A stretch of 64,000 nucleotides of DNA, from the NCBI GenBank assembly GCA_029565065.1, contig JAKQOW010000032.1:52102-116101 (forward strand), in the 5' to 3' direction. This stretch comes from Acidobacteriota bacterium. Lineage in GTDB: Bacteria > Acidobacteriota > JAAYUB01. Below, piece by piece: positions 54,480-64,000 of the stretch. The notes under the pieces were generated by a model that made no database searches, was not told where the DNA came from, and saw only the letters and a list, made by a program, of their open reading frames with translations. Each line of letters starts with the position of its first letter. The stretch's first letter is position 1. The position numbers were made by a program, and so were the translations under genes.

Positions 54480-54932
54480 ATGAACACGGTCTATTTCAAG
54501 AATCTTCAGCGCCAACACCGGATCGACATCAAGGCGTCCCGCCGGCTGCTCCTCAACGCCATGCGCCGGCTGGACGTCTCCGGATCCCTGCTGACGGTGG
54601 TGTTCTGCCGCTCGGAGCGGATCCGGGAGCTGAACCGGTTGTATCGCAACCTCAATGAACCGACGGATGTTCTCTCGTTCCCCACCGCCGATTCCGGCGA
54701 AGACGGGCGAACCTATCTGGGGGACATTTTCATCGCGCCGGAAGTGGCGGCCGAGTATGCGCGCCGAGGCGGGATCGAGCTGGCCGACGAGCTGGCCGTC
54801 CTGCATCTCCACGGCCTGCTGCACCTGCTCGGATATGACCACGAGACCGACACCGGCCAAATGCTGGCGCTGCAGGCCGCGCTGGAGCGGGAGCTCAGAC
54901 CACGAGGACCGGCACGGTCGACCGCCGGATGA
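54480..54932 (+). CDS. ybeY: rRNA maturation endoribonuclease YbeY
   Basis: HGLLHLLGYDH metal-binding motif. 150 aa. Confidence 0.85.
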   Translation: MNTVYFKNLQRQHRIDIKASRRLLLNAMRRLDVSGSLLTVVFCRSERIRELNRLYRNLNEPTDVLSFPTADSGEDGRTYLGDIFIAPEVAAEYARRGGIELADELAVLHLHGLLHLLGYDHETDTGQMLALQAALERELRPRGPARSTAG

Positions 54933-55803
54933 CCCGCTCCGTGGTGCTCCCCACCACGTAATCCTCGACTTCGTCGTAACCGTTGTTGGACAGAATGACC
55001 AGGTCGATGCCCGCCTCCGTGGTGTAATCCACGATGGTCGCCGGCGGCGCGCCTTCCCGCAACGCGATGGTGACTCCGGGTGCACCCTCATCCGGCAGGG
55101 CAAACAACCGGCGGACCTTCGCCTCCATTCGGCCCTTCGCCTCGGGGTCCAGCTCAAAGACGGACTCGACGCCACCGGCATAGTAAGCAGGGTGGAACCG
55201 TGCCTCCACCGCATGCAGGAGATGGACGTGGGGGTCGCTGTTCCCCCGAATGAGGGGCAGCCAGCTCATGGGCCGAACGGAGTTGGATGAGAAATCGGTG
55301 GGGATGAGGACGTGGTCCAGGTGCAGGTCCCGCCCGTCGGACGTCAGGCACGGCCGCATGCCTTGTCGCACCAGCCAGGCCGGGCAGGGGCAGCGGCGCA
55401 GCACCGCCTCGGCGACACTCCCGAACACCACCTGCTCGAGGCTGCGCCGGCCGTGGGTGGACATCACCATCAGGTCGATCGCCTGTTCGGTGACGTAATC
55501 CATGATCATGGACGGAACGCTGAATCCCCGGCGTGTTGCCTGGATGGTCCGGACGCGGCCGCCGGCCGCGGCGCCGGCGAGCTTGTCTCGGGCCTGGTCC
55601 TCCGCGACGTCAAAGAACCGCGCCAGGGAGGCGAATTCTTCGGCGACACGCTGCGGATCGTAGGCATGGGGTGTCACCGCATGGAACAGGTGAAGGGTGG
55701 CTCCGGACCGGGCGGCCAGCGCCGAGGCATAGGGCATGGCCGCCTCGGCCGCTTCGGAAAAATCGGTGGTGAACAGAATGTTCCGGAGTTGGGGATCGCT
55801 CAT
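54895..55803 (-). CDS. tandem universal stress protein (two UspA domains)
   Basis: Two Usp domains: NILFTTDFSE...LVMSTHGRRSL and HVLIPTDFS...LVILSNNGY. Start at MSDPQLRN. A TATAAT-like −10 lies about 20 nt upstream. The ORF-track start at 56094 would run into fabH. Confidence 0.75.
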   Translation of the reverse strand: MSDPQLRNILFTTDFSEAAEAAMPYASALAARSGATLHLFHAVTPHAYDPQRVAEEFASLARFFDVAEDQARDKLAGAAAGGRVRTIQATRRGFSVPSMIMDYVTEQAIDLMVMSTHGRRSLEQVVFGSVAEAVLRRCPCPAWLVRQGMRPCLTSDGRDLHLDHVLIPTDFSSNSVRPMSWLPLIRGNSDPHVHLLHAVEARFHPAYYAGGVESVFELDPEAKGRMEAKVRRLFALPDEGAPGVTIALREGAPPATIVDYTTEAGIDLVILSNNGYDEVEDYVVGSTTERVIRRSTVPVLVV

Positions 55804-55892
55804 TTGGCACCGCCTGCTGTTTTTCAGCATTATAGCGGAGCCCGGGCCCAACGACAACGGCAGCGTCCGTCGGTCGCCCGGATCAGAGACGA

Positions 55893-56888
55893 TCAGATTT
55901 CCCAGCGCAGCAGGGAACTGCCCCAGGTGAACCCGGCGCCGAAACTGGCCAGGACGATCCAGTCGCCTTTCCGGATGCGGCCGTCCCGGGCGGCTTCGTA
56001 CAGGCAGATGGGAATCGTGGCGGAGGTCGTGTTGCCGTAGCGATCGATGTTGACGATCACCTGGTCGTCGCGCAAACCCAGGCGTTCGGCGCACGCTGAG
56101 ATTATCCGCAGGTTGGCCTGGTGGGGAACAAACAGTTTAAGCTGCTCCGGGGCCAGGTTGTTCCGCCGCAGGATTTCCTCAGAGGCGCTGGCCATCTCGG
56201 TGACGGCAAATTTGTAAACCTGGCGGCCCTCCTGGTGGATGACATGCATCTTCTTGTCCACAGTCTCGTGGCTGGGCGGGTTGAGGCTGCCGCCGCCCGG
56301 CATGTAGAGGAACTTGCCGCCCGACCCGTCGGTGCGGAGCACGAAATCCTTCAACCCGACCTCGCCTTCGCCCGCCGGCTCCAGGAGCGCGGCGCCGGCG
56401 CCGTCGCCGAACAGCACGCAGGTGGCCCGGTCGGTGTAATCGACGATCGAGGACATCGTCTCGGCGCCGACGACGACCACCCGCCGGTGAACGCCGGTCC
56501 GGATGAACTTCTCGCCGACGGCCAGGGCGAAGATGAATCCGGAGCATGCGCCCGACAAGTCGAATCCCCAGGCGTTCTTGGCGCCGATTTTTTCCTGGAC
56601 CACGCAGGCGGTCGAGGGGAAGAACATGTCGGGGGTCACCGACGGGATGATGATCAGGTCAATGTCCGCGGGCTCGATGCCCTGGGAGTTGCACAAGCGG
56701 AGGATGGCCTGGGCGGCCAGATCGGAGGTGGCCTGGCCCTTCTCCACGATGTGCCGCTCGTGGATGCCGGTGCGCTCCAGGATCCAATCGTTGGTGGTGT
56801 CGACCATTTTCTCCAGATCCGCGTTCGTCAGGACGCGCTCCGGAACGTACATGCTGATGCCGGAAATTTTGACCTTATATTCGCTCAC
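55893..56888 (-). CDS. fabH: 3-oxoacyl-ACP synthase III
   Basis: Active-site Cys in GACSGFIFAL, plus HQAN and GAGFTWGS. GTG start at VSEYKVKISGISMYVP with AAGGCGG upstream. 332 aa. Confidence 0.85.
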   Translation of the reverse strand: MSEYKVKISGISMYVPERVLTNADLEKMVDTTNDWILERTGIHERHIVEKGQATSDLAAQAILRLCNSQGIEPADIDLIIIPSVTPDMFFPSTACVVQEKIGAKNAWGFDLSGACSGFIFALAVGEKFIRTGVHRRVVVVGAETMSSIVDYTDRATCVLFGDGAGAALLEPAGEGEVGLKDFVLRTDGSGGKFLYMPGGGSLNPPSHETVDKKMHVIHQEGRQVYKFAVTEMASASEEILRRNNLAPEQLKLFVPHQANLRIISACAERLGLRDDQVIVNIDRYGNTTSATIPICLYEAARDGRIRKGDWIVLASFGAGFTWGSSLLRWEI

Positions 56889-57113
56889 GATGGCCCGCCT
56901 TTCGGGTGAATTTTTGAAAACCCAGTTTGTATCAGAATCGACGGAGCATTTCAACCCCGAATTTCCGGCGCGGCCGTGCTCCCGCCTCGACGCCGCAGGC
57001 TCAGTGCGGCCCGCCGCGGGAGGAACGGCTCACCCGGATCGCCAGAAAAGTAAAGTCCTTTCGCCTTTTTTTGATAGAATGACATCTTTCATCTTGGCCC
57101 CGGGACTGTTCGG

Positions 57114-57698
57114 ATGAGCAGCGACGAAGCGGAAGAGATCCGGCGGTTTTTGGCAGGCGACGAGGGTGCGTTCCAGGCGATCATGGATCGCTGGCGTCGA
57201 CCCATCGTCAACTTCCTGTACCGGTGCACCGGCAGCCAGGATGACGCCGCCGAGTTGGCTCAGGAAACCTTCCAGACCGTCGCCCGGCGGCTTGGCGATT
57301 TGAAGGATCCCGCCCGGTTCTCCTCGTGGATCTACAAGATCGCCCTGAACCACTGCCGGATGCGGATGCGCAAGCAGCGCAACCGGCAGATGGAGTCGCT
57401 GGATGCCCAGACCTTTGATAACAACGAACTGAAGGACAGTTACCAATCGCTCACGCTCAACACGTCACTCTCCCCGGAAGAGCGCCTGTCCAAGCAGGAA
57501 ATGGCCCGGGTGGTTCGCCGGGCGCTCGACCGGATCGAGCCGAAACAGCGCGAGGTGATCGTATTGAAGGAGTATTCCGGATTGCGGTTCCATGAGATCG
57601 CCGAGGTGCTCGATGCCCCGATCTCGACGATCAAGTCCCGGATGTACCTGGGACTGGAGAGCCTTCGGCGGGAAATCATCAAAATCATTCGGCCATAG
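57114..57698 (+). CDS. ECF-type RNA polymerase sigma-70 factor
   Basis: Region 2 (IVNFLYRCTGSQDDAAELAQETF) and region 4 (VIVLKEYSGLRFHEIAEVLDAPISTIKSR). Confidence 0.85.
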   Translation: MSSDEAEEIRRFLAGDEGAFQAIMDRWRRPIVNFLYRCTGSQDDAAELAQETFQTVARRLGDLKDPARFSSWIYKIALNHCRMRMRKQRNRQMESLDAQTFDNNELKDSYQSLTLNTSLSPEERLSKQEMARVVRRALDRIEPKQREVIVLKEYSGLRFHEIAEVLDAPISTIKSRMYLGLESLRREIIKIIRP

Positions 57699-57705
57699 GT
57701 GCGCC

Positions 57706-58341
57706 ATGAATTGCGATCAAGCCAGAGAGCAGTTGCTGGATCTGATGTACGACGAGATGCCCCCGGGCGCCGACCATGACGCTCTGGATGCCCATCTGAG
57801 CGGCTGCCCCCGCTGTCGGGCCGAACGGGACGAACTGGGCATCACCCGACGGTTTCTGGCCGCCTGGGACGACACCATACCGGCGGCTCCCCGCAGCCCG
57901 CTCGCCCCAGCCGCCACGGCCGGCCGCCCGGTGCTTCATTTTCCACGGGTCTCCTGGCTCACGGCCGCCGCCGCCCTGCTCGTGATCGCCGCCGGCGTCC
58001 TGGTGGCCGTCACCCCGGTGCAGATCCGCTACCACGACAACGCGGTGGAGATCCGTCTGGGCAGCACACCGGCAACACCGACCGCCGCCGACTCGGAATG
58101 GCTGCGCACGGTGGACCAGATGATCGCCGAGAGCGAAACCCGCCAGATGGGCCGGTTCATGGACGCCATGCAGAATGTCCATTTCCGGCTCGAGGATGAG
58201 CGCAACCGCGACCGTCAGGCCATTCAGCAAGGTTTCGATCTGGTGAAGGAGATTTACATGGACCAGATCGAGCGCAACAACCAGCTGCTGGAACTGTCTC
58301 TCCAGCAGGCGGACTACCGCACTCGAATCCAGCCCCGTTGA
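57706..58341 (+). CDS. anti-sigma factor (zf-HC2 type) with one transmembrane helix
   Basis: HLSGCPRCRAE zinc-finger motif 8 nt downstream of the sigma gene. A transmembrane helix LTAAAALLVIAAGVLVAV. Start at MNCDQAREQLLDLMYDE. Confidence 0.7.
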   Translation: MNCDQAREQLLDLMYDEMPPGADHDALDAHLSGCPRCRAERDELGITRRFLAAWDDTIPAAPRSPLAPAATAGRPVLHFPRVSWLTAAAALLVIAAGVLVAVTPVQIRYHDNAVEIRLGSTPATPTAADSEWLRTVDQMIAESETRQMGRFMDAMQNVHFRLEDERNRDRQAIQQGFDLVKEIYMDQIERNNQLLELSLQQADYRTRIQPR

Positions 58342-58348
58342 GGTCGTC

Positions 58349-58921
58349 ATGATCCGCAGAAGCCATCTGCCCGCTGTATTCTGCCTGATCGTCGGGCTGT
58401 CCGGCACCGCCAGCCTCTTTGGCGCCGGCACGCCGGCCGTCGATTTGAACCAGTTGCGGCGGGAGTGCGAGCTGTTTGAGAACATTCTCAACACTTCCCT
58501 GCGCCAGAATATCCAGAATCCCCTGTTCATCGCCGAGAAGGTGCGCGGCGCGTACTTGGAAGGCTACGGCATCACCTTCACGTACACCGTCAACCTGAAC
58601 CGCTCGATGATCCTGTTCCCCAGATCCGCCCAAACCGGCGCAACCCAGGCCAGCAACGAACCCGATCTCGGCAAGACGGTTCAGATCCTGCGGCGGTGTG
58701 CCGCGGAGGTGCTGAGCCAGTATGGATCAGCCTTCCGGCAGTTGCCGACCCAGCACAAAATCAGTATAATCGCCCACGTTCTTTCCCGCTCGGTGGATCC
58801 GAATGTGCAATCCGGGCACGTCCTGGTCGTCACGGCCACCCGGAACGATCTGGACCAGCTCCAGCGGGCCCGGATCAACACCGATGAATTCAAAAAGAGG
58901 ATCGTCTACCTTGAGTATTAA
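58349..58921 (+). CDS. hypothetical periplasmic protein
   Basis: Signal peptide MIRRSHLPAVFCLIVGLSGTASLFGA. 7 nt downstream of the anti-sigma gene. Its end overlaps the gspE start. Confidence 0.55.
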   Translation: MIRRSHLPAVFCLIVGLSGTASLFGAGTPAVDLNQLRRECELFENILNTSLRQNIQNPLFIAEKVRGAYLEGYGITFTYTVNLNRSMILFPRSAQTGATQASNEPDLGKTVQILRRCAAEVLSQYGSAFRQLPTQHKISIIAHVLSRSVDPNVQSGHVLVVTATRNDLDQLQRARINTDEFKKRIVYLEY

Positions 58922-60617
58922 ACTGTCCGACATCAAGCAGAAGAAAAAGATCGGCGATATCCTGGTAGAAAAAGCGCTGGTCAGCGCCGACGAACTCAAA
59001 ACCGCGCTCAACCTGCAGAAGGAGTCGCGGGAGAAAATTGGGCGGATCCTCTGCGAACTGGGCTACATCTCCGAGAAGGACCTGTTGCAGGAGCTGAGCC
59101 TGCAGCTGGAGATCCCCATTCTGACCCCCGAGATGATCCCGCCGGTTCCGGTCATCGAGAACACCTTCAGCATCAATTTCATGAAGTTCAATCGGTTTCT
59201 CCCGGTCCATTTTGAGGGTGGTCTGCTGAGCATCGCCTGTGTCTACCCCAACGACTACGCCTTGGTCAACACCATCCGCCAGCTCACCCAGCACGAGATT
59301 AAAACCTACCTGGCGGTCGAGTCGGAGATCATGGACCTCATCGACCGGCTGTACGGGGGCGCCGCATCCGACATGGAACGAATCATCGAGGGGATCGGCG
59401 ACGGCGAGATGGCCGGTCTCGAGGATGTCGAGGATATCGAACACCTCAAGGATCTGGCCTCGGAGGCGCCGGTTATCCGTCTGGTGAACCTGTTCCTCCA
59501 GAAAGCCGTGGAGAGCCGCTCCAGCGACATCCACGTGGAACCCTTCGAGAAGGAGTTCAAGGTCCGGTTCCGCATCGACGGCATCCTCCACGATATCGAG
59601 TCGCCGCCGAAGCATCTCAAGGCGGCGATCATCTCCCGCATCAAGCTCATGGCCAAGCTGAACATCGCCGAACGGCGGCTTCCCCAGGACGGTCGCATCA
59701 AGCTCCGGGTGCTGGGCAAAGAGATCGACCTGCGCGTCTCGACCCTGCCCACGCTGTTCGGCGAAAGCGTCGTGCTCCGCATTCTGGACAAAGGTTCGGC
59801 CGCCCACTACGACCTGGCCAAGCTCGGTTTCCTGAGCGACACCATGAACGCGATCCACATGATCATCCGCCGCCCCTACGGCATGTTCCTGGTGACGGGC
59901 CCCACCGGCAGCGGCAAGTCCACCACCCTCTACGGCTCACTCAAGAAGATCAACCTGCCCGACAAGAAGATCATCACCATCGAGGACCCGGTGGAGTACC
60001 AGATCGAGGGGGTGAACCAGATCCACGTGAATCCCCAGATCGGCCTCACGTTCGCCAGCGGCCTGCGCCACATCGTGCGCCAGGACCCGGATGTGATCAT
60101 GGTGGGCGAAATCCGCGACCTCGAGACCGCGGAGATCGCCATCCGGGCGGCCCTCACGGGTCACCTCGTGTTCTCCACCCTGCACACGAACGACGCGCCG
60201 GGCGCCATCGCCCGCCTCATCGACATGGGCGCGGAAGACTACCTGCTGGCGTCCTCGATCCTGGGCATCCTGGCCCAGCGTCTGGTCCGGGTCATCTGCG
60301 ACGAATGCAAGCAGCCGGTCCGGCCCGAGTCGGCCCTGCTCAAACAGTTCAATTTCCCGAACGACACCATGTTCTTTGAGGGAAAGGGATGCCCCAGCTG
60401 CGCCGGTACCGGCTACCACGGACGGATCGGGATCTTCGAGCTGATGAATATGACCGAAGAAGTCAAACACCTGACCATCAGCCGTGCGCCGGCGTCCGAG
60501 ATTCGCAAGATGGCCATTCAGCAGGGTATGCGCACGCTGCAGGAGGACGGTTTTCTGAAAGTCAGCCGGGGGATGACCACCCTCGCCGAAGTGCTGCGCG
60601 TCACGCAGGACGTGTAG
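58911..60617 (+). CDS. gspE: type II secretion system ATPase GspE
   Basis: The N-terminal T2SSE_N domain is KKKIGDILVEKALVSADELKTALNLQ. Walker A is GPTGSGKST. There is a tetra-Cys motif CDECKQ...CPSCAGTG. TTG start with GAGGA 9 nt upstream; an alternative ATG is at 58884. Confidence 0.85.
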   Translation: MSIKLSDIKQKKKIGDILVEKALVSADELKTALNLQKESREKIGRILCELGYISEKDLLQELSLQLEIPILTPEMIPPVPVIENTFSINFMKFNRFLPVHFEGGLLSIACVYPNDYALVNTIRQLTQHEIKTYLAVESEIMDLIDRLYGGAASDMERIIEGIGDGEMAGLEDVEDIEHLKDLASEAPVIRLVNLFLQKAVESRSSDIHVEPFEKEFKVRFRIDGILHDIESPPKHLKAAIISRIKLMAKLNIAERRLPQDGRIKLRVLGKEIDLRVSTLPTLFGESVVLRILDKGSAAHYDLAKLGFLSDTMNAIHMIIRRPYGMFLVTGPTGSGKSTTLYGSLKKINLPDKKIITIEDPVEYQIEGVNQIHVNPQIGLTFASGLRHIVRQDPDVIMVGEIRDLETAEIAIRAALTGHLVFSTLHTNDAPGAIARLIDMGAEDYLLASSILGILAQRLVRVICDECKQPVRPESALLKQFNFPNDTMFFEGKGCPSCAGTGYHGRIGIFELMNMTEEVKHLTISRAPASEIRKMAIQQGMRTLQEDGFLKVSRGMTTLAEVLRVTQDV

Positions 60618-60636
60618 GCGAACCGCACGAGGGATC

Positions 60637-61860
60637 ATGACGGCATTCTCCTACAAAGCCACCACCCGCGACGGCAAGGTCGTCGAAGGCCTGATCGAGG
60701 CCGAGAGCGAGCGTGCCGTCCTGGTCAAACTGCAGGACTTGGGCTACCTGCCGCTGCGGATCACGACCGGATCGAAAGGCGGCTCCTCCATGTTCGCCTT
60801 CAATTTTTCCGCCCAGCGCCGGCGTAAGGTCCGGGCCAAGGATCTGCTGATGTTCACTCAGGAGCTCAAGACCCTGCTCCGGGCCGGACTGCCGCTGGAC
60901 CGCAGCCTGATGATCCTCGAGCAGCTCGCGGAGAAGGGCGTGTTCCAGGAGATCATCCACGACGTCATCGGCAAGATCAAGGGCGGCAAAACGCTGGCCG
61001 ACGCCATGGCCGATCATCCCGACGTGTTCCCCAAGGTCTACCTGAATATGATCCGGGCGGGCGAATCCGGCGGCGTGGTGCCGCAGGTCCTGGAGGAAGT
61101 CAGCGCCTACCTCGAACGGAGCGTCGAGCTCAGGACCTACCTGGCGACCTCGCTGATCTACCCGGTCATCGTTTCTTCGATGATGATCGTGTCGCTGCTG
61201 GTGATGTTCCTCTTCGTCATCCCCAAGTTTGCGCAGATCTTCGAAAGCTCGCGGGCGCCGATCCCGCTGCCCATGCAGGTGCTGATGACGATCAGCGATT
61301 TCTTCACCGGCTGGTGGTGGGCGATCGCGGCTGTCCTGATCCTCGCCGTCGTGGGCTTTGTCCGCTGGCGCCAGACGCCCCGGGGCCGGCGGGTTTGGGA
61401 CGAGCGGCTGCTCCAGACGCCGGTCCTCGGCCGACTGGTCAGTCTGGTGGAAGTCGCCCGGTTCAACCGGACCCTGGGCACCCTGTTGCAGAGCGCCGTC
61501 CCGCTAGTCCAGGCGCTCACACTGGTCAAGGAAATCATCAACAACCAGGTTATCGCCGAGACCATCGAGCCCATCAAGAATGGCGTCAAGAAAGGCGACG
61601 GGCTGGTGGGCCCCATGCGGAAAACCGGCGTCTTTCCGCCACTGTCCCTGCACCTGATCGAGGTGGGCGAAGAGACCGGCAACCTGGCCGCCATGCTCAC
61701 CCAGGCCGCCGACGTGTTCGAGAACGATGCCCGGGTAGAGGTCAAGCGGCTGATCGGCCTGTTCGAACCCGCCATGATCCTCCTGATGGGCGTGGTGGTG
61801 GGCCTGATCGTCATCACCATGGTGTTTTCGATATTCAGCATCAGTGAGATTCCGATGTAG
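60637..61860 (+). CDS. gspF: type II secretion system inner-membrane platform protein GspF
   Basis: 407 aa. Two T2SSF repeats and three transmembrane helices. Confidence 0.85.
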   Translation: MTAFSYKATTRDGKVVEGLIEAESERAVLVKLQDLGYLPLRITTGSKGGSSMFAFNFSAQRRRKVRAKDLLMFTQELKTLLRAGLPLDRSLMILEQLAEKGVFQEIIHDVIGKIKGGKTLADAMADHPDVFPKVYLNMIRAGESGGVVPQVLEEVSAYLERSVELRTYLATSLIYPVIVSSMMIVSLLVMFLFVIPKFAQIFESSRAPIPLPMQVLMTISDFFTGWWWAIAAVLILAVVGFVRWRQTPRGRRVWDERLLQTPVLGRLVSLVEVARFNRTLGTLLQSAVPLVQALTLVKEIINNQVIAETIEPIKNGVKKGDGLVGPMRKTGVFPPLSLHLIEVGEETGNLAAMLTQAADVFENDARVEVKRLIGLFEPAMILLMGVVVGLIVITMVFSIFSISEIPM

Positions 61861-61868
61861 GAGTAGCT

Positions 61869-62300
61869 ATGAGCGAGAAACGGGAACGTCGTCGGCAGCA
61901 CCCCAGGGGCTTCAGCTTGATCGAGCTGATGGTGGTGCTTGTCATTCTGGGTCTGATTGTCGGCATCGTGGGCCCGAGCGCCTGGCGCAGACTGACCCAG
62001 GGCCAGAAGATTGCGGCCAAAACCCAGATTCAGCAACTGGAAGCGTCCCTGCTCAGTTTCAGCACCGACATGGGCCGCCTGCCCTCCACCGAGGAGGGAC
62101 TCAAGGCGCTTGTCGAGAACCCGGACGGCTCGGAACTATGGGCCGGCCCCTATCTGAACAAGATGAAGGTGCCCAAGGATCCCTGGCAGGCGGACTACGT
62201 GTACACCTTCCCGGGTTCCCACAACAATGAATTCGACCTCTATTCCAAGGGGCAGGACGGCCAGGCGGGGACCGCCGACGATATCACCAATTGGGAATGA
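61869..62300 (+). CDS. gspG: type II secretion major pseudopilin GspG
   Basis: Prepilin signal ...RGFSLIELMVVLVILGLI, the GspG core QKIAAKTQIQQLEASL, and the C-terminal DPWQADY. 143 aa. Confidence 0.85.
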   Translation: MSEKRERRRQHPRGFSLIELMVVLVILGLIVGIVGPSAWRRLTQGQKIAAKTQIQQLEASLLSFSTDMGRLPSTEEGLKALVENPDGSELWAGPYLNKMKVPKDPWQADYVYTFPGSHNNEFDLYSKGQDGQAGTADDITNWE

Positions 62301-62303
62301 TCC

Positions 62304-62801
62304 ATGAACCGGCGTCGCGGCGGATTCACGTATGTGGAGGTGGTGGTGGTGTTGGCCATCCTGGCCGTCACCGGTCTCGTCGCCTATCCGCCCCTGCGCG
62401 CCACGCTGGAAAAAACCCGGATGGAGAGCGCCGTCCGGGAGCTGGCGGCTCTGTTGAAGTACGCCCGGGAAAAGTCCATGGCCGAACAGGAAACCGTGGC
62501 CGTGGTGCTGCGCAAACAGGAAGGCGATCTGACAATCTTCAATCGCCGCGGCCAATCCATCAAATACTACCGCCTGTACGACAAAATTGCGTTCACCCGC
62601 CTCATCCTGGACGGATTCGACGTGGCGGACAACCGGACGGTGGTGTGGTTCTACCCCGACGGACGCAGCACCGGTGTCGCCATGGTCGTCCGTCATGAGA
62701 GCGGCCGCCAGCTCCGGCTGAAAACCGACATTCTCACCGGCAACACGCGGATTTACGCGCCCGGGGAAAGCGGGTTCGATGATGAAATGTTCAATCCCTG
62801 A
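62304..62801 (+). CDS. gspH: minor pseudopilin, GspH-like
   Basis: Prepilin motif GGFTYVEVVVVLAIL. 165 aa. Its position after gspG fits GspH. Confidence 0.65.
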   Translation: MNRRRGGFTYVEVVVVLAILAVTGLVAYPPLRATLEKTRMESAVRELAALLKYAREKSMAEQETVAVVLRKQEGDLTIFNRRGQSIKYYRLYDKIAFTRLILDGFDVADNRTVVWFYPDGRSTGVAMVVRHESGRQLRLKTDILTGNTRIYAPGESGFDDEMFNP

Positions 62802-63279
62802 CAACCGGGAGACCGGACGCCGCCTCCGCCGCCGACGCACCGACGCCGGTTTCTCCCTGCTGGAGGTGGTGATCGCGGTGGTGCTGGTCGGGGTGATCTT
62901 CGGCGCCATCATCCAGGCGTTCTCATCCTCACTGCGAAACATCAGCCAGATCAACGTGTATCAGATCGCCCTGCAGTTGGCGCAGAACAAGATGAACGAG
63001 CTGCTCATCGACGAGAGCATCATCGAGGACGGCGCGCTGGAAGGATCGTGGGACGACAATTACAGCTGGCGCGCCGTAATGGAAACCCATGAGGTGGACG
63101 ATCTGACCATCGACAAGAACCGGCTGACGACCCGGTTGCTTCACATCCGACTCACCGTCACGTACGCCAGCGAAGGCCGCCGCCGGGAGGTCCGGCTGTT
63201 CACCATCAAGCTCGTCCCCAAGCCGAGCGTGGGCGAACCCGGCCGGCTGTCGGGGAGGAGGACGCCCTATGACCGCTAG
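62779..63279 (+). CDS. gspI: minor pseudopilin, GspI-like
   Basis: Prepilin motif AGFSLLEVVIAVVLVGVI after a long basic leader. 166 aa. Confidence 0.6.
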   Translation: MMKCSIPDNRETGRRLRRRRTDAGFSLLEVVIAVVLVGVIFGAIIQAFSSSLRNISQINVYQIALQLAQNKMNELLIDESIIEDGALEGSWDDNYSWRAVMETHEVDDLTIDKNRLTTRLLHIRLTVTYASEGRRREVRLFTIKLVPKPSVGEPGRLSGRRTPYDR

Positions 63280-64000
63280 GCGCGGGCTCTCCCCCAGAGG
63301 ATTCAGCTTGCTGGAAGTGCTGGTGGCCGTGACACTGTTCGCCATCATCTGTTCCGTGCTCTACTCCGGCTTTGACATGGTCACCCGCAGCTGGCGCCGC
63401 GGCCACGAGAACATCCAGCAGAGCGAGCGACTGCGCAGCGTGTTCGAGCTGATCCGGCGGCAGGTCATCTCCATCTACCCGGTGGTGCCGGTGGAGGAGG
63501 ACACCGAGGCTGATCTGGCCCAGCCGGGGCCGCAGCGCATGATCGCCGCCAAGATCCCCTACTTCGTGGGCAGCGACCAGCAGGTTGCCTTCGTCACCCT
63601 GTTTTCACTCCGGCTCAATGCCATTCCCGGCCTCTGCTTCGTGGCTTATGGTGTTGAGCCGTCCCCGGACGGCGATGGACTGGCGCTGGTGGAACTGGAG
63701 AAGCCTTACACCGGCATCAGTCCGCTGGCGGCCGGCGGGGTGTCGTCGGCGCCGGAGGACATGTATCGCTATACCCTGCTTGACCGACTGGAAGAAGTCA
63801 CGTTCGAGTTCTACGGCCTCGACCTGTCCCAGGCCGGCGTCGTGCCGGAGGAGGAGCAGACCAAGCAGTGGTACTCCACTTGGAAGGTCGAGGAGATGGG
63901 CGACCTGCCGGAAGCGGTCCGCATCCGCTATCGGTTCATGCCCGAAGCCAAGATGCGGTTCCCGGAGGGCGAAATCCTGGTCCCGATCCGGAGCAAAGGC
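63269..64000 (+). CDS. gspJ: minor pseudopilin, GspJ-like (runs off the window end)
   Basis: ATG with GGAGGA upstream. Prepilin motif RGFSLLEVLVAVTLFAII. More than 244 aa with no stop inside the window, so it is absent from the ORF track. Confidence 0.6.
   Translation, partial: MTARRGLSPRGFSLLEVLVAVTLFAIICSVLYSGFDMVTRSWRRGHENIQQSERLRSVFELIRRQVISIYPVVPVEEDTEADLAQPGPQRMIAAKIPYFVGSDQQVAFVTLFSLRLNAIPGLCFVAYGVEPSPDGDGLALVELEKPYTGISPLAAGGVSSAPEDMYRYTLLDRLEEVTFEFYGLDLSQAGVVPEEEQTKQWYSTWKVEEMGDLPEAVRIRYRFMPEAKMRFPEGEILVPIRSKG

What the first reader, a model, noticed from the sequence alone, without database searches (positions are those of the whole stretch)
57114..64000. ECF sigma / anti-sigma / periplasmic protein fused transcriptionally to a gspEFGHIJ type II secretion operon
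The ECF sigma gene, its zf-HC2 anti-sigma (gap 8 nt), a signal-peptide protein (gap 7 nt) and gspE (an 11-nt overlap with the upstream gene) are packed without intergenic space. gspF, G, H, I and J follow with gaps of 20, 9, 3, −23 and −11 nt. So an envelope-stress-type sigma module heads a T2SS pseudopilus/ATPase operon. That implies the secretion machinery is under a dedicated ECF sigma and co-expressed with its own regulator. The secretin and the gspC/L/M genes are not in the window and may lie beyond 64000 or elsewhere.
Basis: seen in the sequence. Interest (0 to 1): 0.55.

Follow-up and report, generated by a model that had tools for sequence, protein, structure and literature searches.

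The report
ECF sigma module heading T2SS operon
In this Acidobacteriota genome, and in every related lineage sampled, a stress-type sigma factor, its membrane anti-sigma and a novel periplasmic protein sit at the head of a complete 11-gene type II secretion operon, so the secretion machine appears wired to its own envelope-signal switch.

Summary
Window 57114-64000 holds an ECF sigma, a zf-HC2 anti-sigma, a signal-peptide protein ("X", no Pfam family) and gspEFGHIJ. The gaps are 7, 7, -11, 19, 8, 3, -23 and -11 nt.

Longer copies of the contig continue with gspK, L, M, a 274-aa gene and the secretin gspD. The strongest + strand terminator lies 25 nt after gspD, giving 14 genes in about 13.4 kb.

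The same order recurs in about 15 distinct Acidobacteriota lineages, including Terriglobia and Bryobacteraceae.

An RpoE/AlgU-like promoter motif ([GA][AC]CTT-N16-[GA]TCT; window 57063-57089) precedes the sigma gene in nearly all loci. It also precedes homologous sigma/anti-sigma/X triads that lack a T2SS, so X belongs to the sigma module.

In the window's lineage, a sigma-70-like promoter (TTGCCG-17-TATAAT, 58742-58770) lies inside X. It is built from rare codons and conserved. It probably gives the gsp genes ECF-independent basal expression.

Verdict: a new variant of a known theme, ECF-controlled secretion (PUMA3-Hxc, sigmaE-eps). All regulation is inferred from sequence. Interest is moderate.

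The parts
57061..57097 (+). Conserved 37-nt block in the fabH-sigma intergenic region (TCGCCTTTTTTTGATAGAATGACATCTTTCATCTTGG)
   Evidence: It is the only conserved stretch in otherwise diverged upstream regions of window, L013-L016 and L010.
57063..57089 (+). Candidate ECF-type autoregulated promoter P1. The -35 is GCCTT (57063-57067), the spacer is 16 nt, and the -10 is ATCTTT (57084-57089). It ends about 25 nt before the sigma ATG.
   Evidence: The same architecture ([GA][AC]CTT-N15-16-[GA]TC..) lies upstream of the sigma gene in Terriglobia loci and in 7 of 9 loci not used to define it. The stringent form is unique in the 64-kb window. The relaxed form has 3 other hits, all inside long ORFs.
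57072..57080 (+). Possible overlapping sigma-70 extended -10 element, TGaTAGAAT
   Evidence: TGnTAGAAT is kept in window, L014, L015, L016 and L010 while the n position varies (A, G, T). It is absent from the other clades.
57114..57698 (+). ECF (group 4) sigma factor, 194 aa
   Evidence: Pfam Sigma70_r2 and Sigma70_r4_2. TIGR02937 sigma70-ECF scores 89 bits against a cut-off of 42.9. The closest solved structures are SigW, AlgU and RpoE.
57706..58341 (+). Single-pass anti-sigma factor, 211 aa: N-terminal zf-HC2 anti-sigma domain, one TM segment (about residues 84-102) and a periplasmic helical tail of about 105 aa
   Evidence: zf-HC2 scores 23.7 bits. H30, C34 and C37 are invariant across 11 lineages. 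The topology was read from the sequence.
58349..58921 (+). Protein X, 190 aa, with a signal peptide: a periplasmic alpha/beta domain of an undescribed family and the third member of the sigma module
58742..58770 (+). Candidate internal sigma-70-type promoter P2 inside X: TTGCCG-17 nt-TATAAT, about 140 nt upstream of gspE
   Evidence: It matches 10 of 12 consensus positions. It is built from the rare codons TTG, AGT and ATA (8%, 6% and 3% usage). The DNA is kept in L013, L014, L015, L010/L011 and L017 and lost in L016. Codon-usage-aware synonymous conservation gives z=6.2, rank 5 of 1498 windows.
58895..58921 (+). X/gspE translational-coupling junction: Shine-Dalgarno AAGAGGA (58895-58901), gspE TTG start (58911) and an 11-nt overlap TTGAGTATTAA with the X stop
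   Evidence: The junction sequence is conserved in all close lineages and in distant L026 and L029. It holds the highest synonymous-conservation peak, z=8.95.
58911..60617 (+). gspE, the T2SS ATPase, 568 aa, with an N-terminal MshEN c-di-GMP-binding motif
   Evidence: TIGR02533 scores 657.7 bits against a cut-off of 630. Pfam T2SSE and MshEN match. NF053729 scores 59 bits against a cut-off of 38.
60637..61860 (+). gspF, the inner-membrane platform
   Evidence: Pfam T2SSF, two stretches, E=2e-56. TIGR02120 scores 387 bits.
61869..62300 (+). gspG, the major pseudopilin
   Evidence: TIGR01710 scores 134.5 bits against a cut-off of 88.9. Pfam T2SSG and N_methyl match.
62304..62801 (+). gspH-like minor pseudopilin
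   Evidence: Pfam GspH scores 26.1 bits against a cut-off of 21. N_methyl matches.
62779..63279 (+). gspI-like minor pseudopilin
   Evidence: N_methyl matches. XpsI and GspI hits fall below their cut-offs. The assignment rests on position in the operon.
63269..64000 (+). gspJ-like minor pseudopilin, cut by the window end (260 aa in full)
   Evidence: N_methyl matches and T2SSJ is a weak hit. The full gene and gspK-L-M-(C/N)-D follow on L001.

Best explanation
The region is the 5' half of a single 14-gene unit of about 13.4 kb. Its layout is: P1, ECF sigma, zf-HC2 anti-sigma, periplasmic protein X, gspE F G H I J K L M (C/N) D, terminator.

Proposed mechanism:
- At rest, the membrane anti-sigma holds the sigma through its cytoplasmic zinc-finger domain. 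Periplasmic X partners with the anti-sigma's periplasmic tail, by analogy with RseB/MucB.
- An envelope or periplasmic signal releases the sigma, most likely through regulated proteolysis of the anti-sigma, as for the sigma's closest relatives RsiW/SigW, MucA/AlgU and RseA/RpoE.
- The freed sigma initiates at its own RpoE-like promoter P1 (GCCTT-N16-ATCTTT). It thereby amplifies itself, its regulators and, by read-through, the whole T2SS.
- gspE is translationally coupled to X through an 11-nt overlap and a conserved Shine-Dalgarno sequence.
- In the window's lineage, a second sigma-70-type promoter inside X (P2) probably supplies a basal, ECF-independent level of the gsp genes. The ECF module would then act as an inducible booster rather than the only switch.
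- GspE carries an MshEN c-di-GMP motif, which suggests an additional post-translational control.

Shown here: the gene identities, the spacing, the conservation of the gene order and the conservation of both promoter-like motifs. Inferred: co-transcription, recognition of P1 by this sigma, the role of X and the nature of the signal.
For: 1. Gene content and tight spacing in the window. The complete T2SS lies downstream on the same contig.
2. The largest gap is 38 nt. The best + strand terminator lies 25 nt after gspD, with none comparable inside the unit.
3. The gene order is conserved in about 15 distinct Acidobacteriota lineages, with sigma identity down to 33% and X identity down to 23%.
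4. An unbiased GspE-first sample gave 4 of 4.
5. The upstream neighbours differ between lineages (fabH; IMPDH/SecA; M23 peptidase; hexose dehydratase), so the block moves as a unit.
6. The promoter motif lies 20-110 nt upstream of the sigma gene in all 9 defining loci and in 7 of 9 further loci, against 0.018 expected per window. It is the only intergenic copy in 64 kb. It resembles the RpoE/AlgU consensus (my own knowledge), which fits the SigW/AlgU/RpoE relationship.
7. Triads of sigma, anti-sigma and an X homologue without any T2SS (L020 in Bacteroidota, L025) carry the same motif. This ties both X and the motif to the sigma.
8. P2 is conserved at synonymous sites in rare codons.
9. There is precedent that ECF sigmas drive T2SS genes: VreI and hxc (PMC2729926) and sigmaE and eps (PMC6598108).
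Against: - There are no transcript, TSS or genetic data. Every regulatory statement is sequence inference.
- The relaxed promoter pattern was written after I had seen most loci, so its statistics are partly circular. L017 and L027 do not match it strictly.
- In the window's lineage the P1 spacer also reads as a sigma-70 extended -10 (TGnTAGAAT). The operon could therefore be driven by the housekeeping sigma.
- P2 could make the gsp genes largely independent of P1.
- Other synonymous-conservation peaks of similar height exist without explanation, so P2's signal is not unique.
- The X model matches no known regulator fold, so the RseB analogy is positional only.
Confidence: 0.68

Rival explanations
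1. This reading treats the adjacency as a shared transcript only. The T2SS genes are expressed mainly from housekeeping sigma-70 promoters: P2 inside X, and/or the TGnTAGAAT element at 57072-57080. The ECF sigma's real regulon lies elsewhere, and the module is just the first cistron of a constitutive operon.
For: TTGCCG-17-TATAAT at 58742-58770 matches 10 of 12 consensus positions. It is held in rare codons across lineages. TGnTAGAAT is conserved with a variable n. In many bacteria, T2SS genes are expressed more or less constitutively (my own knowledge).
Against: P2 and TGnTAGAAT are confined to the window's family-level lineage. They are absent from L016 (P2 only) and from the Terriglobia and L023-L029 clades. 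Yet the sigma-T2SS fusion and the ECF-type motif occur across the phylum. Conserved stop/start overlap of X and gspE in distant clades argues for expression from one mRNA. No other intergenic copy of the ECF motif lies in 64 kb.
Confidence: 0.2
2. X is a T2SS accessory component rather than part of the sigma-regulatory module. It could be a pilotin, a GspC/GspN/GspS-like assembly factor or an inner-membrane-ring partner. The true regulatory pair would then be sigma and anti-sigma only.
Confidence: 0.1

Closest known systems
Pseudomonas aeruginosa PUMA3 (vreA-vreI-vreR) next to the Hxc type II secretion cluster
   Same: An ECF sigma and its membrane regulator are encoded immediately upstream of a T2SS gene cluster. 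Over-expressing the sigma raises the T2SS genes (PMC2729926).
   Different: PUMA3 is a FecI/FecR-type cell-surface-signalling system with the TonB-transducer-like VreA. The anti-sigma here is zf-HC2 rather than FecR. The third protein X is unrelated to VreA. The sigma here is closest to SigW, AlgU and RpoE. Here the genes are fused into one tightly packed, overlapping operon that is conserved across a phylum.
RpoE-RseA-RseB (E. coli) and AlgU-MucA-MucB (P. aeruginosa) envelope-stress modules
   Same: The order is sigma, single-pass anti-sigma, periplasmic third protein. The sigma is among the closest solved relatives (1or7, 6in7). The promoter has the same architecture, -35 (A/G)ACTT, N16, -10 TCT (the consensus is my own knowledge), and is autoregulatory by position.
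   Different: The anti-sigma has a zf-HC2 domain, not RseA_N. X gives no MucB_RseB hit and has a different fold. The downstream cargo is a full T2SS rather than rseC or general envelope-repair genes.
Vibrio cholerae sigmaE control of the eps T2SS
   Same: An RpoE-type sigma positively regulates T2SS genes, and T2SS defects feed back on sigmaE (PMC6598108, citing Zielke 2014 and Sikora 2007).
   Different: In Vibrio, rpoE is unlinked to eps and is the general envelope-stress sigma. Here a dedicated paralogue is physically fused to the operon.
Bacillus subtilis SigW-RsiW
   Same: SigW is the best solved-structure match to the sigma (5wuq, E=5e-22). RsiW is also a zf-HC2 single-pass anti-sigma, removed by regulated intramembrane proteolysis (my own knowledge).
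   Different: There is no periplasmic third protein and no secretion-system cargo. Site-1 and site-2 proteases were not looked for here.
ECF32 (HrpL-type) sigmas linked to type III secretion clusters
   Same: This is an ECF group whose conserved genomic context is a large secretion-system cluster (PMC7826278).
   Different: It involves a different secretion system, is regulated by two-component or enhancer-binding proteins, and has no cognate anti-sigma. The main text of that classification mentions no T2SS-linked group. Its supplements could not be read.

Membership tests
ECF (group 4) sigma-70 family | Only the sigma-2 and sigma-4 domains, about 200 aa | tested here: met
   Sigma70_r2 covers residues 25-90 and Sigma70_r4_2 covers 133-184 of a 194-aa protein. 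TIGR02937 scores 89 bits against a cut-off of 42.9.
ECF (group 4) sigma-70 family | A cognate anti-sigma factor encoded next to the sigma gene | tested here: met
   A zf-HC2 protein starts 7 nt downstream. The HxxxCxxC motif is invariant in 11 lineages.
ECF (group 4) sigma-70 family | An autoregulated promoter with an ECF-type -35 and -10 upstream of its own gene | tested here: inconclusive
   A conserved [GA][AC]CTT-N16-[GA]TCT motif lies at the expected place in nearly all loci. No TSS or in-vitro transcription data are available.
RpoE/RseA/RseB (MucA/MucB) module | An anti-sigma with the RseA N-terminal domain and a periplasmic MucB_RseB protein | tested here: not met
   Pfam finds only zf-HC2 in the anti-sigma and nothing in X. 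The X model does not match RseB or MucB in the PDB.
FecI/FecR-type cell-surface signalling (PUMA3-like) | A FecR-type anti-sigma and a TonB-dependent transducer partner | tested here: not met
   There are no FecR or TonB-receptor domains in the module. The sigma is closest to SigW, AlgU and RpoE.
Type II secretion system (Gsp) | GspE ATPase, GspF platform and GspG major pseudopilin | tested here: met
   TIGR02533 (657.7 against 630) and TIGR01710 (134.5 against 88.9) exceed their cut-offs. Pfam T2SSF matches at E=2e-56.
Type II secretion system (Gsp) | The minor pseudopilin set GspH, I, J and K | tested here: met
   GspH exceeds the Pfam cut-off. GspI and GspJ have N_methyl plus weak family hits in the canonical order. 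GspK has T2SSK_1st.
Type II secretion system (Gsp) | The outer-membrane secretin GspD and the GspL/GspM assembly platform | tested here: met
   On L001 the secretin shows N0, Secretin_N and Secretin domains. T2SSM scores 34.6 bits against 27.8. The GspL-like gene has only weak PilN and T2SSL hits.
Type II secretion system (Gsp) | GspC (HR plus PDZ) and the prepilin peptidase GspO | tested here: inconclusive
   The 274-aa gene between gspM and gspD has no family hit. No peptidase gene lies in the operon. It may be encoded elsewhere.
MshEN-type c-di-GMP-binding ATPases | An N-terminal 24-5-24 residue RLGxx(L/V/I)(L/V/I)xxG... motif pair | tested here: met
   NF053729 scores 59.2 bits against a cut-off of 38, mapping to about residues 13-65 of the 568-aa GspE (the query began 9 codons upstream at 58884, where the hit is 22-74). 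Both half-motifs are readable (KIGDILVEKALV..., KIGRILCELGYI...), with K in place of R. Binding was not tested.

The most novel reading that the evidence does not exclude
The sigma/anti-sigma/X triad would be a T2SS-dedicated surveillance circuit, hard-wired to the secretion operon across the phylum Acidobacteriota. X is an undescribed periplasmic domain family (about 900 clusters, single and tandem forms). In this reading X would sense the state of the secretion pathway, for example substrate load in the periplasm, secretin or pseudopilus assembly, or an external polymer signal. It would tune production of the machine through regulated release of the sigma. That would be the first secretion-system-specific ECF feedback loop for a T2SS outside the FecI-type PUMA3 case, and a new ECF sensory partner.
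Probability: 0.3. Interest if true: 0.65.

Novelty: new variant of a known kind. Interest (0 to 1): 0.5.

Why it matters
How T2SS genes are regulated is poorly understood outside a few Proteobacteria. Acidobacteriota are abundant polymer degraders in soil and in anaerobic digesters, and they depend on secreted enzymes.

An ECF module fused to the T2SS operon across the phylum gives a concrete, testable handle on when these organisms deploy secretion. It also defines a new periplasmic partner family for RpoE/SigW-like sigma systems. The motif [GA][AC]CTT-N16-[GA]TCT can be used to search these genomes for further targets, including T2SS substrates. Finally, the locus may be a compact example of layered control: ECF induction, a basal sigma-70 promoter, translational coupling and c-di-GMP sensing by GspE.

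Tried and rejected
- The GGAAC at 57022, suggested as the ECF -35, is not conserved (GGAGC in L013; the region is unalignable in others).
- Pfam and NCBIfam searches for X, down to E=1 for Pfam, gave nothing.
- The first AF2 model of X, from 7 sequences, was weak (pLDDT 69). A 48-sequence alignment gave pLDDT 86.5.
- An Rfam scan of 55800-64000 at E<=0.1 found no known RNA element, so there is no c-di-GMP riboswitch.
- Folding of the putative P2 leader gave z=-0.72, so no notable structure.
- A second copy of the ECF motif inside gspK of L019 scored 26.4. It coincides with a conserved peptide (PxFxxRHxSF) and decays in L021 and L022, so it was not accepted as a promoter.
- The weak + strand terminator-like hits inside the anti-sigma gene and gspF have 5-10 bp stems and poor T tails and lie in coding sequence. 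I judged them to be noise.
- Literature searches for an Acidobacteria ECF-T2SS link found nothing relevant. The supplements of the ECF classification paper are not held.

Full report
**1. Observation.**

| Gene | Coordinates | Evidence |
|---|---|---|
| ECF sigma | 57114-57698, 194 aa | Sigma70_r2 and r4_2; TIGR02937 above cut-off |
| Anti-sigma | 57706-58341, 211 aa | zf-HC2 |
| Protein X | 58349-58921, 190 aa | N-terminal signal sequence; no Pfam or NCBIfam family |
| gspE | 58911-60617 | TIGR02533 657.7 bits, cut-off 630 |
| gspF | 60637-61860 | Pfam T2SSF |
| gspG | 61869-62300 | TIGR01710 above cut-off |
| gspH | 62304-62801 | Pfam GspH above cut-off |
| gspI | 62779-63279 | N_methyl; weak family hits |
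| gspJ | 63269 to window end | N_methyl; weak T2SSJ |

The spacings are 7, 7, -11, 19, 8, 3, -23 and -11 nt.

gspE starts at a TTG (58911), 9 nt after an AAGAGGA Shine-Dalgarno sequence. The TTG lies inside the last codons of X (TTGAGTATTAA).

**2. The rest of the system.**

The GspI protein is found on longer metagenomic contigs identical to the window. On L001 (L001 coordinate = window coordinate minus 52778) the operon continues with:

- gspJ (260 aa) and gspK;
- a 454-aa GspL-like gene, with weak PilN and T2SSL hits;
- gspM, with T2SSM above its cut-off;
- a 274-aa gene with no family;
- an 841-aa secretin, gspD.

The gaps in this stretch are -14, -4, 1, -4 and 38 nt.

The strongest + strand terminator in 14.5 kb is a 10-bp GC-rich hairpin with a T tail, 25 nt after the gspD stop. 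Nothing comparable lies inside the unit. The unit is therefore 14 genes in about 13.4 kb.

**3. Conservation.**

X has only seven 90%-identity clusters in the word-indexed search, all Acidobacteriota where named. Their contigs, plus a scan of one genome per species, gave loci in which sigma, anti-sigma, X and gspEFGHIJKLM..D appear in the same order. These fall into two groups:

- the window's lineage: L013, L014, L015, L016, L010/L011 and L007/L017, with X identity of 39-93%;
- Terriglobia and Bryobacteraceae MAGs: L018, L019, L021 and L022, with sigma identity of 33-38%, X of 23-29% and GspE of 55%. Homology of X was confirmed by hhalign at 98% probability.

Sigma-first look-ups added L023 and L024.

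As an unbiased test I took four GspE orthologues at 63-65% identity, chosen only for long contigs. All four have an ECF sigma and two proteins of about 180-230 aa directly upstream of gspE.

The neighbours upstream of the sigma differ between lineages. fabH is there only in the window's lineage. Elsewhere it is IMPDH/SecA, an M23 peptidase or a hexose dehydratase. The sigma-to-gspD block is thus the conserved unit.

The TTGAGTATTAA overlap of X and gspE recurs in L026 and L029, far from the window's lineage.

**4. X belongs to the sigma module.**

Two loci carry sigma, anti-sigma and an X homologue with no T2SS genes nearby:

- L020 (Roseivirgaceae, Bacteroidota): X homologue of 386 aa, hhalign 97%;
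- L025 (Acidobacteria): X homologue of 289 aa, hhalign 95.5%.

A full HMMER search finds 884 representative clusters of the X domain, in single (about 180-200 aa) and tandem (about 360-480 aa) forms.

The anti-sigma family keeps H30, C34 and C37 invariant. It has one TM segment and a helical periplasmic tail of about 105 aa.

**5. Promoters.**

Upstream regions of the sigma gene are diverged except for one block. In the window this block is TCGCCTTTTTTTGATAGAATGACATCTTTCATCTTGG (57061-57097). Terriglobia loci show CGACTTTTTT-N11-CGTCTT at the same place.

The shared architecture is [GA][AC]CTT, 16 nt, [GA]TCT. In the window this is GCCTT at 57063-57067 and ATCTTT at 57084-57089. It is close to the RpoE/AlgU consensus GAACTT-N16-TCT (my own knowledge). 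This fits the sigma's closest solved relatives, SigW, AlgU and RpoE.

- The stringent form is unique in the 64-kb window.
- A relaxed form occurs in the 90 nt before the sigma in 7 of 9 loci that were not used to define it. These include both T2SS-less triads. The expectation is 0.018 per window.
- The relaxed pattern was written after I had seen those loci, so the statistic is optimistic.
- The three other relaxed matches in the window lie inside long ORFs.
- The GGAAC at 57022 is not conserved.

In the window's lineage only, the spacer also reads TGnTAGAAT (57072-57080) with a variable n. This is a possible overlapping sigma-70 extended -10.

**6. An internal promoter.**

The consensus scan found one sigma-70-like site in 7.5 kb: TTGCCG-17-TATAAT at 58742-58770. 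It lies inside X, about 140 nt before gspE.

It is encoded by Leu-TTG, Ser-AGT and Ile-ATA, which account for 8%, 6% and 3% of their amino acids in this genome. The same DNA is kept in L013, L014, L015 (66% GC), L010/L011 and L017. It is lost in L016.

A codon-usage-aware test of synonymous conservation gives z=6.2, rank 5 of 1498 nine-codon windows. The top window is the gspE start, at z=8.95. Several other peaks of similar size are unexplained, so this is good but not unique evidence.

The element is absent from the other clades.

**7. Interpretation.**

The best reading is one operon under an autoregulated ECF promoter. In this lineage it is supplemented by a basal sigma-70 promoter for the gsp genes. 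X-to-gspE translational coupling and a c-di-GMP-binding MshEN motif on GspE (NF053729, 59 bits) add further layers.

The signalling steps are inferred by analogy with SigW/RsiW, AlgU/MucA/MucB and RpoE/RseA/RseB. These steps are sequestration by the anti-sigma, modulation by X and release by proteolysis.

**8. Comparison and novelty.**

ECF control of a T2SS has precedents. VreI of the PUMA3 system lies next to the hxc genes and up-regulates them (PMC2729926). V. cholerae sigmaE positively regulates eps (PMC6598108).

This case differs in four ways:

- the sigma type (RpoE/SigW-like rather than FecI-like);
- the anti-sigma (zf-HC2);
- the new partner X;
- the physical fusion into one overlapping operon conserved across a phylum.

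I found no paper that describes it. I could not consult the ECF Hub group descriptions. I file it as a new variant of a known kind, of moderate interest, with all regulatory claims awaiting transcript or genetic data.

Noticed in passing
window 58911-59130 (GspE N-terminus): GspE carries the two-part MshEN c-di-GMP-binding motif (KIGDILVEKALV...Q, a 5-residue linker, KIGRILCELGYI...Q). NF053729 scores 59 bits against a cut-off of 38. Secretion may therefore also be gated by c-di-GMP. Both half-motifs start with K rather than the canonical R.
   Followed up: partly
L001 17871-20501 (beyond the window end, about 155-270 nt after gspD): A second ECF sigma (151 or 189 aa, depending on the start) follows the T2SS terminator. 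After it come a 180-aa protein with no family, a 163-aa TPR protein and a large FG-GAP protein. The T2SS is thus flanked by two ECF modules.
   Followed up: no
L019 14272-14301; L022 16244; L021 about 8370: A near-perfect second copy of the ECF promoter motif (CCGACTTTTTTGGCCCGCCATGCGTCTTTT) lies inside gspK of a Terriglobia MAG. It overlaps a conserved peptide (PxFxxRHxSF) and is weaker in two relatives. It could be coding constraint or an internal ECF promoter for gspL-D.
   Followed up: partly
window 57636-57662, 60958-60984, 61459-61485: These are further peaks of synonymous-site conservation across lineages (z 6.1-6.8), in the 3' end of the sigma gene and in gspF. No motif is recognisable in them.
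   Followed up: partly
L018 12200-12616; L024 14284-15364: The operon varies between lineages. A 138-aa gene (its sequence looked GxxExxY/PDDEXK-like by eye; not searched) is inserted between gspE and gspF in one Terriglobia MAG. gspG is duplicated in another acidobacterial MAG.
   Followed up: no
proteins P0178-P0318: About half of the X-domain family consists of proteins of 360-480 aa with two to four matched stretches. These are tandem duplications, as in the Bacteroidota triad L020. The family is absent from Pfam and NCBIfam.
   Followed up: partly
window 54895-56954 (- strand): A tandem universal-stress-protein gene and fabH lie divergently upstream of the sigma gene. fabH keeps this position only within the window's own lineage. 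The USP ORF overlaps the end of ybeY (54480-54932) on the opposite strand.
   Followed up: no
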